In this document: piece after piece, positions 1 through 7,540 of the stretch
How positions within the stretch are numbered: the first letter of the stretch is position 1
Layout: every line of letters begins with the position of its first letter
Assembly (NCBI RefSeq): GCF_009914755.1
Contig: NC_060935.1
DNA length: 64,000 bases
Origin: the human T2T-CHM13v2.0 reference genome, Homo sapiens
Strand: one strand, 5' to 3'
Notes under the pieces: generated by a model
Database searches by the model: none
What the model saw: only the letters and a program-made list of their open reading frames with translations
What the model was told of the DNA's origin: nothing
Made by a program: the position numbers and the translations under genes

Positions 1-915
1 ACGTTTTATTGTATGTTTATACCACATATTGTTTATTCATTCATCTATTGAGGAACACTTGGGTTGCTTCCATGTTTTAGCTATTATAATTAATACTGCT
101 TTGAACATAGGTGTGCAAAGACCTCTTTGAGATTCTGCTTTTAATTCTTTTGAGTATATATCCAGAAGTAGAATTGCTGGGTCATATGGTAATTCTCATT
201 TTAATTTTTTTAGGAACTGCCATAGTGTTTTTCACAACATTTGTATTATTTCACATTCCCACCAGCAGTGCATAAGGGTTCCATTTTCTCCACATCTTTA
301 CCAATACTTATTTTCTGTTTTGTTTTGTTTTGTTTTGTTTTGTAATAGCCATCCTAATGGGTGTGCAGTGGTATCTCATTGTGGTTTTGATTTGCATTAT
401 CCTAATGATGAATGATGTTGAGCATCTTTTCATGTGCCTTTGGTCGCTTTGTATATCTTTTTTGGAGAAATGTCTATTTCAGTCCTATGCCTATGTTTGT
501 TTGTTTGTTTTGGAGACACAGTCTCACTCTGTCACCCAGGCTGGTGTACAGTAGTGCCATCAAACTCCTGCCTATGCCCACTTTTGAAATGGGTTGTTTG
601 TTTTGTTGTTGTTCAATGTCTTTTAATCTTTAGCATTTCTTATAGGGCAGGTCAACTAGTGACAAACTCTCTCAGCTTTTGTTTACGTGGGAATGTCTTC
701 ATTTCTCCTTCCTTTGTGAGGGATAGTTATGCCAGATATAGAATTCTTTCTTGACAGTTTTTTTATTCTTTCATCATTTTAAATATGCCATCCTACTGCC
801 CTCTGGCCGCCGTGGTTTCTGATGAGAAATCAGCCGAGACTCATACTAACGATTCGTTGTATAGAATGAGTCACCTCTCTGTTGCTGCTTTCAAGAGTCT
901 CTGTCTTTGCCACTT
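1..915 (-). mobile_element. Old L1 (L1M-type) fragments, with a short antisense Alu piece near 495-560
   Basis: Antisense L1 motifs (gtggtatctcattgtggttttgatttgcatt; aaactctctcagcttttg) and Alu-like gagacacagtctcactctgtcacccaggctgg. Boundaries approximate. Confidence 0.85.
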
Positions 916-1194
916 GTGGAGAAGAGGCCTATTCCTCCAGCTCAAGGGTGGTCTCAGTAGTCGTTCTGGAACCAGGCAAGGTCAGGTTCTTAGCACCTTG
1001 CAGGGTCTCCCCCAGGGGACCTCTCTTTAGCCACCAGCCGCCAGACTTACTTTACAATCTCTTCCCTCTCTCCTCTGATTCTCTGAGTTTGCTGTTCCCT
1101 CTTCCTGGGATGCCCTTTCCCCTAATGTCTGCCTAAAAAAAAAATCTTAAAACCCAGCTGTCACCCCTAACACGACTCCCTTAGTTAACCATGG

Positions 1195-1430
1195 CTGGCA
1201 CTCATATACATTTGGTCTAACAGGCACCAATCTAGGTGCATTACGCATCTTAACCTGTTAAATCCTCACGAGCACGTGGAAGCAGTGTCATTTTGTCACC
1301 TGACGGATGAGGAAAGAAAGGAACATAGAGGTTGAGGAACTTGCCCAAGGTAACACAGCTTGTGAGTGGCTGAGCTGGGATTGAAACTAAGCCATCTGAC
1401 TCCAGGGTCCAAACTCTTAGTGGCCATGCT
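1195..1430 (-). mobile_element. MIR SINE
   Basis: gatgaggaa...aggttgaggaacttgcccaaggtaacacagct...gagctgggattgaa core. Many other MIR fragments in the window are not listed. Confidence 0.75.
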
Positions 1431-2589
1431 ATCCTATGTCTCCGGGACTGATCTGCCTCTTATCTGGTGGTACCATCCTTATCTGTGCCTGGGTCTGTCC
1501 ACCACACCAGGCTGGGAGCTCTGAGGACATGTCTTGTTAACAGTGTCCTCTGTACTTTAGTCTGAACCTGTACTCAGTGAAGGTCGGTTATATGAACTCG
1601 TGGTAGAATGCCTGGAAGCTCACCACCAGCACTTCCTTGTGTCTGAGGTCTGGGTCCTGTCCCAATGTACTGCTATAGATGGGCGGGGAGAGATAGGTGT
1701 GCCTGTTTTCGGCTTGACTGGGGGAAGGACCTCTCCTGAGAGCGGTGTCCCTGAGAGGTCACAGGAAGTGAGTGGGAATCACTGATCAGTCAGCTTCGTG
1801 CTGGACAGCAGAGCCCTGGGTTCCCAAGGCTGGGACAGGGAGTGGGGTAGAACTGGGCCCATCCTGGGTGGCTCTGAGCCCTGTGTGAGGCATCACCGTC
1901 TTTTTCGTTGCCATTCCCCCCACCCAGTCCCCCGCCCCCACTCTCTGCCGTTGTTCATTCGTTGGGGAGCAGTTGGCTTCCAGGATACTAGGCAATGCAG
2001 AGAGCCACAAATGCAGACTGGAGGCCTTGAAAAGAGAAGAGGAAGAAAAAGGAGGAAAGAGGGGAGGAGGACAAAGATAGGCAGGGCAAGGCGAGAAGGA
2101 GGGAATGGGAGAGGAGTCACAGGGCCTGGGCCTTCCGGACCCTCGGGATGGGACGGTGGCCTCTGGCTCACAGCCCAGCGTGGACCGACGCCTGGTGTCC
2201 AGCCCTGTGTGGCTGCTAGGACACAGGAGGCCAGCTTGGCCCATTGCAGGGAGAGCTCTGAGCCATCGAGGTGGTTCAGCTGTCCTGGGGAGTTCAGGGG
2301 ACCCCACACCAGGCCTCCAAGGCCTCTTCTGCAGGATGGACGTGGGCTGCTATTTGACCTCGGGGGCTGCGGGAGGAGGACATAGCCTCTTCAGGGGCTT
2401 TCCCCCAAACTTACCCCAGAAGGAAACTGTATCTGCCCTCACTCCCCAGAGGCAGCCAGGGAGCCAGAAATATCTTCAATGCATCTCTCCTTTAGTCTTA
2501 AAAACCCCGGGAGTTTACCGCGTTCTAGTCCATAACATCCTCGTGTTTCCTTCCATGGAAAACATAGAAAAAAACATGACGATTTTTTC

Positions 2590-3070
2590 CAAAACTGCCG
2601 TCAGGTGCGGTGCCAGGTGCCACGTTTATCCCGGGCCTACCGCCGCGGTGCCAGTGAAGCCGCCTGGGATTCCGGGCAAAGTGGGGCTGTGGGGGGTTCG
2701 GCCGAGACGGAGGGGGCCGGGGTGGCGCGGGCGCCCCCTCGCCGTCCCGCCCGCGGGCGTCACCTAAGCCGCCGTTGCCATGGGCCCGCAGCAGATGGCC
2801 CGGTTTAGGGTTCCGGGGCGGGCGGCGCGCACGGGATTAGGTGAATTAGGGAGCCGGAGCAGTGCCGCCGTCGCCGTCGCAGCGCCATGGAGGACCCCGC
2901 CGACCCTGCCGACCCCGCGCGCATCCCGCAGCCCGGCAAGTGGGCGCTGGTGCGCAGCCTGAACCAGGCGTTCAAGACCTACGCCGTCCTGCCGGTGAGG
3001 CCCGGGCCAGGAGGGGAGAAGGGAGGGGGAGGGCGCCTCGCCCCGGGCCTCAGTTTCCCCGCCTGTTAGA
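2590..3070. promoter_or_regulatory. CpG island / probable alternative promoter in intron 2
   Basis: Very high GC and CpG density with GGGCGG-type boxes, surrounding the ATG at 2887. Confidence 0.8.
2887..2994 (+). CDS. MYO7A: Candidate alternative first coding exon (N-terminus MEDPADPADPARIPQPGKWALVRSLNQAFKTYAVLP)
   Basis: Strong Kozak gcgccATGG in a CpG island; 36 open codons end at donor CCG|GTGAGG, phase 0, matching the phase-0 start of exon 3. Confidence 0.72.
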
Positions 3071-5520
3071 AGCTGGGCGGGCCACAAACAGGGTCGCTAG
3101 GCTTCAGGGTGTGCATGGACTGCGGCCCTAGGATGCCACCTGCGGTCTCTGACCTCCCCCAGTGTGAACTTGGCCGCGGCTGCCCTTTCCTAGGAGGAGA
3201 GGTTTTGCATCTGGGAAACCCAAGCCAGGCAGGCCAGGTCTGGGCGGGGGTGTCCTGCATTTGCTGAGATCCAGAGCAGGGAGCACCTCCAGGTGCACAG
3301 AGGGACCCCCAGCCATAGTTTATGGACTGGCTGACCGCTGATGGAAGAGAAAGCTAGGCCCACTGGTCTCCTCTCCAAACTATGTTTAGCAACTAGACAC
3401 TAGCAAGATGCTTGGCTCACGTTTCCCATCTGTGAAAATGGGGTGATAAAACCGGTGTCCCAGAGTGATCATGAAGATAACGAGCGGCAAAATGTCCTGA
3501 AACAGATTCCTTTTCACTCCACAAACAGGGACTGGCCCCAGGCCTGGTCCCAGAGGAAGGAAGAGGCAGAAAGGGCTAAGGCCCTGTGGGGAATTATTAA
3601 TATTGGCTCGAGACCGGCTTGATGCCTGGGAGGAAGGAGGGTAGACAGAAAGAACAATGTGCATTTGCATGGGTCTCTCATCTTTACATGCACTGACTCC
3701 TTCCATTTCATGGCTGGTGGAAACTGAGGCCCAGAAAGATTGAGTGCCTCACCCAGAGAGACACAGCGTTAGTGGTGGAGCTGGGACTATAAGCCAGATC
3801 TCCTATGTGTTCACTGTGGATATGTGCTGGCTTTCCTGGGGGGAGGCCCCACAGGGGTTTTGGAGTACCCCTGAGAACATTCGAACAGACCCATTCTAGG
3901 AAGGCACGACTCGGGCTGGGAGCCTGCATAGCTGGCAGGGCCTGGGAAACCCTCTGCCCTGGTCATATATTTGATAGGAGAAAAGCTGGGACTTGCCCCA
4001 CGTTACACAGCCACACTGAGGCATGTGTCGTGTCACAAACGAGATCTTCCATTCAAGGTGAGTACCAAGCAAGGCGCCCCATACAGTGTGTAAAGTTGTC
4101 ACGGAACATGGTGTAGGAATGGGGCCAGATGCAGTGGTGGGGTGCCTGGGGCTAGCCATGGGGATGGGAGGGGGTGGTGGGGTCCTACCTGGAGCCTGGT
4201 TCCCCATTCTCACCTCCCTCCTGCCTCTCAATGAAGCTTCATCTTCTTTCATGGCTTCCTTCCTCCCTTCCTTCTCCCTCTGAGCCAGTGACTCCTGATC
4301 CACCCTGATTTTGGTCCTGGCTCTGTCCTCCAGATGCTAATAGTCCTGTCAGTCACTGATTTGATGAGTGACTGTGGCCAGGTTCCTTTCTCTCTTTGGC
4401 CCTCAGTTTCCTCGGCTGTAAAATGAGGATCCTTACAACCTGCCTGCCTTGCGATGCTTCAAGAACTTTCCCTAGGGCCACAGGAATATTCCCCTTCAGA
4501 AGTCCTAAGACCCCAGAATTCTCCCTGAAGCCTCTCCCCTGCCATCTGAAACTGTTTCCTCAAGTCTGGCCTAGAGCAAGATAGTTTGGTCACTGCCCTC
4601 TGTGACAGCCCTAAGTAAGAAGAGTTGTAGTCATGTCTGTTTGCTGTGTGGCCCCAAGAGCTTCACTCAGCCTCTCGGAATCTCCATTTCCTGCTCACAT
4701 GAAGTTTTTTTTATTTTGGTTATTTTATCTTCTCCCAGGGGAAACAAACATTTTCTGTGTGCCAGGCCCTGTGCTGGGTTGAGGGATACAGGTGACTCAG
4801 AGAGACCCCTGCCTTCCAGCTGCCCTCAGCCTAAGTCTCCAGCTTGCCTTCAGGGCCCTTGAGCCATCTGGGCGGGGGAGGACTCTATCAGTGTTTCCTG
4901 TTTTGCTCAGTGAGCTGCATGTGGGACTGGGCCCAGGGAATGTCAGGAAAGAGCCCTGGATTTGGGGTTTGTCAGACCTGGGCTTCAGTCCTGGCTCTGC
5001 CACAAAACAGCTGTGTGACCTTGGGCACGTTTCTTGACCTCTTTGAGGAGAGAAATTGGAGACAGTCCCCTGGCCACATGCTGTTGCCCACAAGCGAACA
5101 CGCTCCCCACCCCTTCTCTCTCACCGAGGCCCGCTCTGGGCTGGGCTCTGGGGAGCCACAGATGAGGGACTCAGACCCAGCCCCACCCTAGGGAGCTCCA
5201 GGCCAGTGGGGAAGGGGAGCAGACCCTGTGTGGGGTGGCTGTCAGGGGTAAGCCCAGGGTCAGGGAGTGCAGCTGGGGCTTGGACACAAGCAGCTGTGAG
5301 GATTATATGGGGCAGTTTACGGGATGCAGCCTGTGGAGCCCAGGCCCACAGTGAATGCTCAGTAAACAGTTCTCTTCCACGCCCAAGCCTCTCCAATTTT
5401 TCTTACTTTTTCTGGGAGGAAGTTTGGGTTTGGGACTAGCCTGACTCTATCATGTGCCAACCTCCCATTCACATGAAGAGAGGGTCCACAGGGGCAGCTG
5501 TGGCTGGAAAATAGCACATA

Positions 5521-5797
5521 GATGGCAGTGGTCCCATAAGACTATAATGCCATATTTTACTGTACCTTTTATGTGTATGTTTAGATATGTTTACATACAC
5601 AAATACACACTATGGATTATGACTGCCTATAGTATTCAGTACAGTAGCAGGTTGTACAGGTTTGTAGTGTAGGAGCAAGAGGCTACCCCATCCAGCCTAG
5701 GTGTGTAGTGGGCTGTACCATCTAGGTTTGTGAAGTACACTCGATGACTTCATATGTTTGCATAGAACTTATCTCTGACATTAACAATGCATGACTG
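5521..5797 (-). mobile_element. Tigger3/MER7-type MITE
   Basis: Matches recalled consensus (ggtcccataagactataat...ttttactgtaccttt...gcatgactg-TA). Confidence 0.8.
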
Positions 5798-6299
5798 TAG
5801 CTGGTTCTGATGGGAACAAGAGGAGGCTGAAACAGTAATGAGTTGGTCTTGGACTCACTGAGTTCAGCCTTCACTGAGAAATGTGGAAATTGAGGCTCAG
5901 AGAGGTCAGCGACTCACCCAAGGCCGGGTAGGGCCTGAAACCCAGTCTTCTGACTCCTAGCCCAGAACAGATTCTGTCAGACCATTACCACGGTTTACTT
6001 CATTGTGAATCAGTTTTATAAGTTGTTACATTTTTTTTTACTTGATATTAAGTTATATTCTTATTAGAATGTCCCAACTCCTAGGGAGTTGGAGTACCAC
6101 CCAAAAAAGAATACTTTTATTAGGATTAGAATAAAATCTAAGCTTGTATCCCAAGGCCAGCAAAGGGCCTATGTGTCCTGGACCCTGCCTACTTCTCTGA
6201 GCTCCCTCTCGCCCATCAGGTCCTACCTCCTGGCTGTTCCTTTCTGCCGCAGGGCCTTTGCATGTGCTGTTTCCTATGCTGGGATTACTGTCCCCTGCT

Positions 6300-6600
6300 T
6301 TTCCCTTGGCTGACTGCTTGTCACCCTTCAGGTGTCAGCTCAGCGATTCCCTCCATGGAGCGGCTCCATTGGCTACTGGGTCTAGGTTGGTTGGCTCTGT
6401 CATTCTCCACCATTGGCTTGTTTGTTTCCTTGACAGCACTCACCAGTATCCAAAGTGATCGTGCTGATCTATTTGCTCAGTTTTTTGTCACCACCTCTAA
6501 CTAGAACGTAGACTCCATAATCACTGCTCAACCCCCAGCATTTAGATTAATCAGTGCTTTGCACTCAGTAGGTAATCAATACATGTTTGTTGAATCCATC
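6300..6600. mobile_element. L2 3' fragment
   Basis: cagtgctttgcactcagtaggtaatcaatacatgtttgttgaat, typical L2 tail. Confidence 0.6.
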
Positions 6601-7285
6601 AGTGCTGAATGTGGTTGTTCTTAGTCCATTTCTCTGACTTGGGATTTTACGTTTGGCTCTCACGATCCCTTGCTGAATGAGTAGTGCGAGTCAGGCCCTG
6701 GGCCAGATGCCGCAGGGGACACAAAGCGACATCCTCCCCCAGGATCAGGGCTCTCTCCACATGCCAGAAGACAATGTGGCTGAACCCTTCTCTAGTGCCC
6801 AGCACGGAGTGGTGTCCCTGTGAGGAACCTGTCATAATGATGATAAAAATCAGCCCTGGAGGTGAAGGAGGCTGCAGCATTCACCCACTGTCTGGGTGTC
6901 CTGTGGTGTCATGTTAGAGAGGAAGTGGTTTGAGTGGTCTGGTGTTTCTGTCTAGACCCCAGTGAATCTGTCATACACATGTAGGGTGTAGATCCATGGG
7001 GAGAGCTGGGCTTTGAGAGGCCTTGGCTCTCTCTGAGCCTCTGCTAAGTCATCCATAAAATGGGAATATGGCTGTTCTAGAGGGGGGATTGATGAGATTG
7101 CATAAATGCCCAGCCCAGGGCCTGCACTGCTCCAGAAGGTTGCTAGTAAGTGTGAGTCCCCTTCTCTTCCCCCTTGTGTGGTTGGCTCAGAGCCTCTGAT
7201 TGTAGCAGAGGGATATAGGGCTGCCTGGAAGGGGCTCCAATCCCCCTCCCTGCTCACCTGGGCTGAGACTCTCTCTCGCCCATAG

Positions 7286-7540
<255 letters not shown>

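What the first reader, a model, noticed from the sequence alone, without database searches (positions are those of the whole stretch)
2887..2994. Alternative CpG-island first coding exon giving myosin VIIa a different 36-aa N-terminus
Seen: in intron 2, a CpG island contains an optimal-Kozak ATG (gccATGG), 36 open codons and a consensus donor (CCG|GTGAGG) in phase 0, so it joins exon 3 in frame. It would replace the canonical 6-residue start (MVILQQ, upstream of the window) with MEDPADPADPARIPQPGKWALVRSLNQAFKTYAVLP. The C-terminal half (KWALVRSLNQAFKTY) looks like an amphipathic helix. Established: N-terminal extensions tune mechanochemistry in class I myosins. Recalled, to verify: mouse hair cells use several MYO7A N-terminal isoforms. 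Inference: this is the human exon for a cell-type-specific motor variant, which Usher 1B panels built on the canonical transcript would miss.
Basis: partly seen in the sequence, partly recalled or inferred. Interest (0 to 1): 0.85.

Follow-up and report, generated by a model that had tools for sequence, protein, structure and literature searches.

The report
Human MYO7A-N isoform first coding exon
This is the human copy of an alternative first coding exon that gives the deafness and blindness motor protein myosin VIIa a longer N-terminus (the MYO7A-N isoform); it is real and conserved in mammals, but it is already described in mouse cochlea, human retina and gene-prediction databases.

Summary
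ATG 2887 sits in GCCATGG, 36 codons stay open to 2994, GTGAGG follows, and the exon joins exon 3 (7286) in phase 0 inside a CpG island.

The ATG/ORF/donor pattern alone is not beyond chance. Conservation is:
- All 18 unnamed read-through ORFs keep the Met, the frame, a 22-residue block and a GT-compatible codon (Val) right after the exon. Identity to human falls from 87% to 34% at the donor.
- All 28 named full-length mammalian gene models splice the same junction. They include five NCBI Homo sapiens isoforms.
- PDB 9dfs_D, a myosin-VIIa chain, carries the 38-residue counterpart.

The exon is in print. Mouse MYO7A-N has 5'RACE, knockout, HA knock-in, cryo-EM and an ATPase about 8-fold slower than the canonical form (PMC13396587). 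A human retinal alternative-TSS isoform of 2245 versus 2215 residues fits this exon, since +30 = 36 − 6. Its authors already ask for it in diagnostic pipelines (PMC12047242).

Verdict: real coding exon, interpretation supported, already known.

Still open: the hub's RefSeq table starts this exon at 2898-2916, downstream of the ATG. How many human transcripts carry the ATG is therefore unsettled.

The parts
2500..3050 (.). CpG island holding the internal MYO7A promoter and exon N
   Evidence: GC 0.72-0.77 and CpG obs/exp 0.76-1.07 in 200-base windows from 2500 to 2900. Flanks are 0.13-0.54.
2780..2854 (+). Conserved non-coding block upstream of the ATG; putative MYO7A-N core promoter
   Evidence: the human reading from ATG 2780 is MGPQQMARFRVPGRAARTGLGELGS..., in frame +1 relative to exon N, and stops at 2960-2962; three ORF hits (P0007, P0014, P0016) read MGPRQMAGFRVPRRAVRTGLGELGS through the same DNA, and P0018 carries its last part (MGLGELGS). 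In all four it is in frame with the Met. The block is therefore conserved as DNA, but the frame between it and the ATG is not. The mouse repair template shows the same block by eye; the authors place a putative Myo7a-N promoter just upstream of the exon.
2833..2850 (+). 18-base motif GGGATTAGGTGAATTAGG, ending 36 bases before the ATG
   Evidence: one match in the window, with 0.01 expected. By eye it is present unchanged in the mouse repair template. Its function was not tested.
2887..2994 (+). Coding part of exon N: start codon plus 35 codons (MEDPADPADPARIPQPGKWALVRSLNQAFKTYAVLP)
   Evidence: See Best explanation.
2893..2918 (+). 9-base tandem repeat GACCCCGCC (Asp-Pro-Ala), 2.9 copies, inside the exon
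   Evidence: The unit is a multiple of three. This fits the in-frame length variation of this part among species, 36 to 56 residues for the whole exon peptide.
2995..3000 (+). Splice donor GTGAGG
   Evidence: The hub's table gives 2994 as the end of ten RefSeq first exons; all 18 read-through ORFs have Val (GTN) as the first residue after the exon.
7286..7399 (+). Shared exon (exon 3 of the canonical transcript), joined in phase 0
   Evidence: the Pfam Myosin_VII_N beta-barrel (PF24123) starts at residue 37 of P0003, the first residue of this exon.
7301..7303 (+). In-frame ATG that starts the short (MYO7A-S type) protein when ATG 2887 is not in the transcript
   Evidence: with a first exon starting at 2898, the first ATG met is 7293 (other frame, 5 codons), then 7301 in frame.

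Best explanation
Window 2887-2994 is the coding part of the human orthologue of the first exon of the MYO7A-N isoform. An internal CpG-island promoter in the intron upstream of the shared exon starts transcription a few tens of bases before ATG 2887; the position is inferred from the 31-base leader in mouse. The exon supplies 36 residues and splices at 2994 to the shared exon at 7286. The six-residue canonical start is thereby replaced by a 36-residue one.

The peptide has two parts. The first is an acidic, proline-rich low-complexity stretch of variable length, built on a 9-base repeat. The second is a conserved 22-residue block that abuts the N-terminal beta-barrel of the motor.

By analogy with the mouse protein, the extension lowers the actin-activated ATPase rate about 8-fold without changing apparent actin affinity. 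That would yield a slower motor that may hold tension longer. Shown in mouse: use in outer hair cells, graded towards the cochlear base. Reported in human: predominant use in neural retina. Inferred: that the human protein behaves like the mouse one.
For: Sequence: ATG, frame, donor and phase as described, with an in-frame stop at 2842 and no earlier in-frame ATG.

Conservation:
- One search gave 20 proteins at E<=10 among 38 candidates: one human model, one whale model and 18 unnamed ORFs that read through the donor.
- All 18 ORFs start M-E-[PT]-P, keep one frame to the block QPGKWALVRSLNQALKTYAV[LM]P, and have Val next.
- Identity to human is 345 of 396 (87%) over the last 22 exon residues and 134 of 396 (34%) over the next 22. 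Leaving out the first three residues after the donor gives 86 of 342 (25%).
- The alignment of P0001 with the 19 non-human hits has 12 invariant columns, all within W19-P36.
- One search gave 29 proteins at E<=1 among 32 candidates, all named mammalian MYO7A models. All 28 new ones splice ...P|GD[HY]VW. Five are Homo sapiens isoforms (X7, X9, X11, X17, X19).
- PDB 9dfs_D residues 6-43 align to all 36 residues, with 25 identical, one 2-residue gap and E 2.5e-9.
- the exon ends exactly where the Pfam beta-barrel begins, and the peptide itself matches no Pfam family.

Literature:
- PMC13396587: in mouse the first exon is 145 bp, with a 31-base leader and 38 codons. The paper reports 5'RACE, an exon knockout with outer hair cell loss and progressive hearing loss, and an HA knock-in after the ATG that detects the protein. 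kcat is 0.05 versus 0.38 per s. It states that the extension is conserved in human.
- PMC12047242: human retina Iso-Seq, ONT and qPCR; predicted 2245 versus 2215 residues, with a longer N-terminal tail and a low-complexity region.
- the other listed alternative first exon (3966/3978-4057) has only an out-of-frame ATG, so it cannot give +30 residues.
Against: - The hub's RefSeq table for this assembly lists first exons starting at 2898-2916, that is 11-29 bases after the ATG. As modelled, those transcripts cannot encode the peptide and would start at 7301. Five further exons of that table are not listed, and I could not see them.
- No call gave direct evidence of the human protein, or of the exact human TSS.
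- The link between the published 2245-residue retinal isoform and this exon rests on arithmetic and description. Coordinates and primers are in PDF supplements that I could not read.
- The hits are predicted ORFs and gene models. Species with a broken start or frame would be under-represented.
- One model, gray whale P0004, has no Met at the expected place. It starts at the upstream Met, with about 24 codons missing.
- No non-mammalian hit was found, so I did not verify the paper's 'across vertebrates'.
- The ATG/ORF/donor pattern alone recurs by chance in this window.
Confidence: 0.92

Rival explanations
1. In human the exon is mainly a non-coding leader. Transcription starts downstream of ATG 2887, so the promoter yields the short MYO7A-S type protein, which begins at the Met in exon 3, and little or no N-type protein.
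For: The hub's RefSeq table shows ten first-exon starts between 2898 and 2916 and none listed upstream of 2887; such transcripts have no ATG in the exon. Their first ATG is 7293 (other frame, 5 codons) and the next is the in-frame 7301.
Against: The peptide, its frame and the Met are kept in all 18 read-through ORFs, and conservation drops at the donor. A leader would not need that. PMC12047242 predicts a 2245-residue ORF from its long-read model, which requires the ATG. NCBI human models X7, X9, X11, X17 and X19 include it. In mouse the leader is 31 bases and the tagged protein is seen. Model 5' ends are often incomplete (my own knowledge). A mixture of both transcript types remains possible.
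Confidence: 0.06
2. A chance open frame in GC-rich DNA, where stop codons are rare, next to a GT.
For:: 33 ATG/phase-0 donor combinations of equal or better donor score lie elsewhere in the window, outside annotated exons; the frame stays open for 24 more codons into the intron, as expected of GC-rich sequence.
Against: All the conservation, database and literature evidence above.
Confidence: 0.01

Closest known systems
Mouse MYO7A-N (Li et al., Nat Commun 2026, PMC13396587; preprint 10.1101/2025.04.01.646665; PDB 9dfs)
   Same: Orthologous first coding exon. Its own start site lies upstream of the shared exon. The Met-Glu start, the Pro/Asp/Ala-rich stretch, the GKWALVR.LNQ..KT.AVLP block and the junction to the shared exon all match. 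The upstream 18-base motif is identical by eye.
   Different: Human has 36 codons and mouse 38. 25 of 36 residues are identical, and 5 of the last 22 differ. The functional data (knockout, tag, ATPase, cryo-EM) are all from mouse; none exist for the human peptide.
Human retinal MYO7A isoform with alternative 5' TSS (Genome Res 2025, PMC12047242; preprint 10.1101/2024.09.10.612265)
   Same: Predicted 2245 versus 2215 residues, which is +30 = 36 - 6. It has a longer N-terminal tail with a low-complexity region and is reported as the predominant isoform in neural retina. It is most likely the same exon.
   Different: I could not see its coordinates or primers (PDF supplements), so the identity is inferred. 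That paper compares it with the mouse isoforms of Li et al. 2020, not with MYO7A-N.
NCBI predicted proteins 'unconventional myosin-VIIa isoform X7/X9/X11/X17/X19 [Homo sapiens]' and counterparts in 15 other named mammals
   Different: These are computational models, not curated or experimentally shown. The hub's table for this assembly lists no first exon that reaches the ATG.
MYO7A-C (canonical) and MYO7A-S (short) isoforms
   Same: Same gene, same shared exon and same motor. The isoforms differ only in what precedes the N-terminal beta-barrel.
   Different: C has an 11-residue extension and the faster ATPase. S has none and is slow (human 0.13 versus 0.83 per s; PMC10579538). N has 41 residues in human (36 + 5) and is slow in mouse.
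N-terminal extensions of class I myosins (MYO1B, MYO1C)
   Same: It works alike: alternative N-terminal extensions ahead of the motor tune kinetics and force sensitivity. PMC13396587 and PMC10579538 both draw this comparison.
   Different: Different myosin class and no sequence relation tested. The MYO7A extensions were unresolved in cryo-EM, so a docking mechanism like that of myosin I is not shown.

Membership tests
MYO7A-N first coding exon (orthologue) | Lies upstream of the exon shared by all MYO7A isoforms and splices to it in frame | tested here: met
   2994|7286 is phase 0; the same junction appears in all 28 named models.
MYO7A-N first coding exon (orthologue) | Encoded peptide is homologous to the mouse MYO7A-N extension | tested here: met
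   PDB 9dfs_D residues 6-43, E 2.5e-9, 25 of 36 identical.
MYO7A-N first coding exon (orthologue) | Own transcription start site with the ATG inside the transcript | tested here: inconclusive
   The hub's table has first exons ending at 2994, but they start at 2898-2916, after the ATG. PMC12047242 and the NCBI models imply transcripts that include it. No 5' end data could be read.
MYO7A-N first coding exon (orthologue) | Protein made from this start codon | not testable with these tools
   Shown in mouse by HA knock-in. No human proteomic or ribosome profiling data were seen.
MYO7A-N first coding exon (orthologue) | Purifying selection on the reading frame | tested here: met
   87% versus 34% identity on either side of the donor. 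All length changes are in frame in all 18 ORFs. No orthologous DNA was available, so no dN/dS was computed.
CpG island (length over 200, GC over 0.5, obs/exp over 0.6; criteria recalled) | Composition thresholds | tested here: met
   2640-3060 is 421 bases with GC 0.75 and obs/exp 0.89.
Amphipathic helix | Helical hydrophobic moment above that of shuffled sequence; helix seen or predicted | tested here: inconclusive
   the 11-mer L21-T31 scores 0.755, reached by 0.4% of shuffles; the 18-mer scores 0.32, reached by 23% of shuffles. The extension was unresolved in cryo-EM.

The most novel reading that the evidence does not exclude
In human, the start sites of this broad CpG-island promoter may straddle ATG 2887. 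The hub's RefSeq models start 11-29 bases after the ATG, while the mouse 5'RACE start is 31 bases before it. One promoter would then give two proteins. Transcripts that include the ATG make the N-type motor with the 41-residue extension. Those that start just downstream make the S-type motor from ATG 7301, after a 5-codon out-of-frame ORF at 7293. A shift of a few tens of bases in start-site choice would set the N:S ratio, and it could differ between retina and cochlea. A variant in 2833-2916 could then change the protein made without touching any annotated coding base.
Probability: 0.2. Interest if true: 0.4.

Novelty: already known. Interest (0 to 1): 0.15.

Why it matters
MYO7A mutations cause Usher syndrome 1B and non-syndromic deafness. 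An alternative first coding exon that lies about 4.3 kb upstream of canonical exon 3, inside an intron, is easy to leave out of tests and of gene-replacement constructs built on the canonical transcript. PMC12047242 (diagnostics, retinal gene therapy) and PMC13396587 (inner ear gene therapy) have already made these points, so this report adds no new biology. What it adds is an independent check from the sequence: the human exon is intact, conserved in named species of four mammalian orders (primates, bats, carnivores, ruminants) plus one whale model that lacks the expected Met, and ends exactly at a domain boundary. It also flags that the annotated 5' ends in this assembly do not reach the start codon.

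Tried and rejected
- the 36-residue peptide was under the 40-residue minimum of the search for homologous proteins. I sent the longer in-frame window stretch 2845-2994 instead.
- Structure prediction was not accepting jobs.
- the supplements that should hold the vertebrate alignment (PMC13396587) and the MYO7A qPCR primers and coordinates (PMC12047242) are PDF or too-large files. The one readable table concerns USH2A only.
- a search for human inner-ear long-read work on this exon (23 papers held at least 4 of the 5 terms, 15 listed) gave nothing beyond the papers already used.
- this search was badly framed, because MYO7A was not required. None of the 20 listed papers mentions MYO7A.
- I found no paper reporting a patient variant in this exon. 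Searches are the only searches behind that statement.
- Chance ORF: rejected on conservation.
- Exon 3966/3978-4057 as the source of the +30-residue protein: rejected, because its only ATG (4023) is out of frame and stops after 19 codons.
- I compared the mouse repair-template DNA printed with the window by eye only.

Full report
**What is in the sequence**

Window 2887-2889 is an ATG in the context GCCATGG. The frame stays open for 36 codons to 2994 and is followed by GTGAGG. Exon 3 of the canonical transcript (7286-7399) reads GDHVWMDLR... from its first base, so a 2994|7286 junction is in frame.

The exon lies in a CpG island of roughly 2500-3050. Over 2640-3060, GC is 0.75 and CpG observed/expected is 0.89; the flanks are at 0.26 and 0.17. 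The nearest in-frame stop upstream is TGA at 2842. The only other ATGs nearby (2780, 2795) are in another frame.

**Is it more than chance?**

By pattern alone, no. I built a donor matrix from the 30 annotated donors in the window. It scores this donor 7.26 bits, above 7 of the 30 real ones and in the top 3.8% of the 3452 GT sites. The exon side, CCG, is not consensus. With that threshold, an ATG and at least 20 open codons in phase 0, this is the only ATG in 1-7285. However, 33 such combinations occur elsewhere in the window outside annotated exons. The frame also stays open for 24 codons into the intron, as GC-rich DNA tends to do. The case therefore rests on comparison with other sequences.

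**Conservation**

The 36-residue peptide was too short for the protein search, so I used the in-frame stretch 2845-2994. It returned 20 proteins at E<=10 among 38 candidates:
- a gray whale model;
- 18 unnamed ORFs from short contigs that read straight through the donor.

All 18 ORFs begin M-E-[PT]-P and keep one frame through a Pro/Asp/Ala-rich stretch of variable length. All reach the block QPGKWALVRSLNQALKTYAV[LM]P and have Val, a GT-compatible codon, as the next residue.

Identity to the human reading is 345 of 396 (87%) over the last 22 exon residues. It is 134 of 396 (34%) over the next 22, or 86 of 342 (25%) without the three donor-adjacent residues. That step at 2994/2995 is what an exon boundary looks like. 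The 12 invariant columns of alignment A1 (P0001 with the 19 non-human hits) all lie in W19-P36.

A second search used residues 1-40 of the human model. It gave 29 proteins at E<=1 among 32 candidates, all named mammalian MYO7A models. All 28 new ones carry the same junction. They include Homo sapiens isoforms X7, X9, X11 and X19, three chimpanzee isoforms, three Old World monkey species, three bats, eight cat species and a sheep hybrid.

The upstream block behaves differently. The block 2780-2854 is conserved as DNA. The human reading MGPQQMARFRVPGRAARTGLGELGS matches MGPRQMAGFRVPRRAVRTGLGELGS in three ORF hits, and P0018 carries its last part. In human that reading is out of frame with the Met and stops at 2960-2962, whereas in all four hits it is in frame. 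The sequence between the block and the ATG is therefore not under coding constraint. This supports 2887 as the start.

**Caveats on conservation**

- The hits are ORF and gene predictions, so broken copies would be under-represented.
- The whale model P0004 lacks the expected Met. It starts at the upstream one, with about 24 codons missing.
- No non-mammalian hit appeared.

**What it is**

PDB chain 9dfs_D, named unconventional myosin-VIIa, aligns at residues 6-43 to all 36 human residues. 25 are identical, there is one 2-residue gap, and E is 2.5e-9.

Its 38 residues fit the mouse MYO7A-N constructs of Li et al. (PMC13396587; I read the abstract, passages and sections 13 and 14). That paper reports:
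- a previously unannotated first coding exon of 145 bp, with a 31-base leader and 38 codons;
- confirmation by long reads and 5'RACE;
- an HA tag placed after the ATG that shows the protein mainly in outer hair cells, increasing towards the cochlear base, and at the upper tip-link density;
- a statement that the extension is conserved in humans (Supplementary Fig. 1, which I could not open).

The mouse DNA around the ATG, printed in the methods, lines up by eye with window 2805-2960. This includes the 18-base motif that is unique in the window at 2833-2850.

For human, PMC12047242 (passages and section 5) reports from Iso-Seq, ONT and qPCR that a MYO7A isoform with an alternative 5' start is the most abundant in neural retina. 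It is predicted at 2245 residues against 2215, with a longer N-terminal tail and a low-complexity region. 36 - 6 = 30 fits exactly. The other listed alternative first exon (3966/3978-4057) has only an out-of-frame ATG. The authors already recommend adding the new start site to diagnostic pipelines and gene-therapy design. Their coordinates and primers are in PDF supplements that I could not read, so this identification is inferred.

**How it most likely works**

Pfam places the Myosin_VII_N beta-barrel from residue 37 of the human model, the first residue of exon 3, and the motor at 97-759. The exon peptide itself matches no family. The exon therefore adds a free-standing extension directly ahead of the barrel.

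Its first half is a low-complexity tract built on a 9-base repeat (2893-2918, 2.9 copies). This explains why the whole exon peptide varies from 36 to 56 residues, always in frame.

Its second half is the conserved block. [quoted passage not shown]

Measured in mouse, kcat is 0.05 per s for N against 0.38 per s for C. Apparent actin affinity is similar and gliding speed is nearly equal. For human protein, removing the 11-residue canonical extension, or blocking it with GFP, also slows the ATPase to about 0.1 per s (PMC10579538, passages).

My reading, which is inference, has two parts. The N exon removes the accelerating canonical N-terminus. It also puts a conserved block next to the barrel, giving a slow motor. 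The authors suggest such a motor may hold tension longer.

**What remains open**

The hub's RefSeq table for this assembly starts this first exon at 2898-2916, which is 11-29 bases after the ATG. Such transcripts would meet a 5-codon out-of-frame ORF at 7293 and then the in-frame ATG 7301, giving the short protein.

This conflicts with the NCBI human protein models. Those sit on a contig of 135,086,622 bases, which I recall as chromosome 11 of the older reference. It also conflicts with the 2245-residue prediction. The modelled 5' ends may simply be incomplete, or human start sites may straddle the ATG. I could not decide this.

**Verdict**

It is not new: it has been in print since 2024-2026 and is present in prediction databases.

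Noticed in passing
window 2833-2850 (within conserved block 2780-2854): An 18-base motif GGGATTAGGTGAATTAGG, unique in the window and unchanged in the mouse sequence printed. It ends 36 bases before the ATG. It contains GGATTA, which I recall as the reverse of the TAATCC site of OTX/CRX-type homeodomain factors. That would fit use of this promoter in retina, but it was not tested.
   Followed up: partly
window 2898-2916 versus 2887: The ten RefSeq first-exon starts in the hub's table all lie after the start codon. NCBI human protein models X7, X9, X11, X17 and X19 nevertheless begin at that codon. This discrepancy is unresolved.
   Followed up: partly
window 7293-7310: An out-of-frame ATG (ACCATGT) in the shared exon opens a 5-codon ORF that overlaps the in-frame ATG 7301 (TGGATGG, no purine at -3). 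This arrangement should make translation of the short isoform inefficient (the inference is mine).
   Followed up: partly
window 3966-4057: An alternative first exon with a strong donor (AAGGTGAGT, 12.3 bits, equal to the best of the 30 annotated donors). Its only ATG (4023) is out of frame and stops after 19 codons. It is probably the human counterpart of the non-coding first exon of mouse Myo7a-S, but this was not tested.
   Followed up: partly
P0004 (gray whale model), residues 1-45: The model lacks the Met-Glu start and about 24 codons around it. It begins at the upstream Met, while the conserved block is intact. This could be a real deletion of the start region in a baleen whale or a model or assembly error.
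   Followed up: no
window 2971-2973 (residue 29) and 2890-2931: Phe29 is shared by human, chimpanzee, green monkey, baboon and macaque. All other hits have Leu: 0 of 18 unnamed ORFs match human here, and whale, bats, cats, sheep and the PDB chain also have Leu. Human and chimpanzee also have the shortest exon peptide: 36 residues, against 39 in Old World monkeys and 41-56 elsewhere.
   Followed up: partly
window 2105-2680, + strand: A 192-codon open frame from ATG 2105 ends at a weak phase-0 GT (5.41 bits), just upstream of the CpG island. The region has strong G over C and A over T skew at about 2000-2200. Probably chance; not examined.
   Followed up: no
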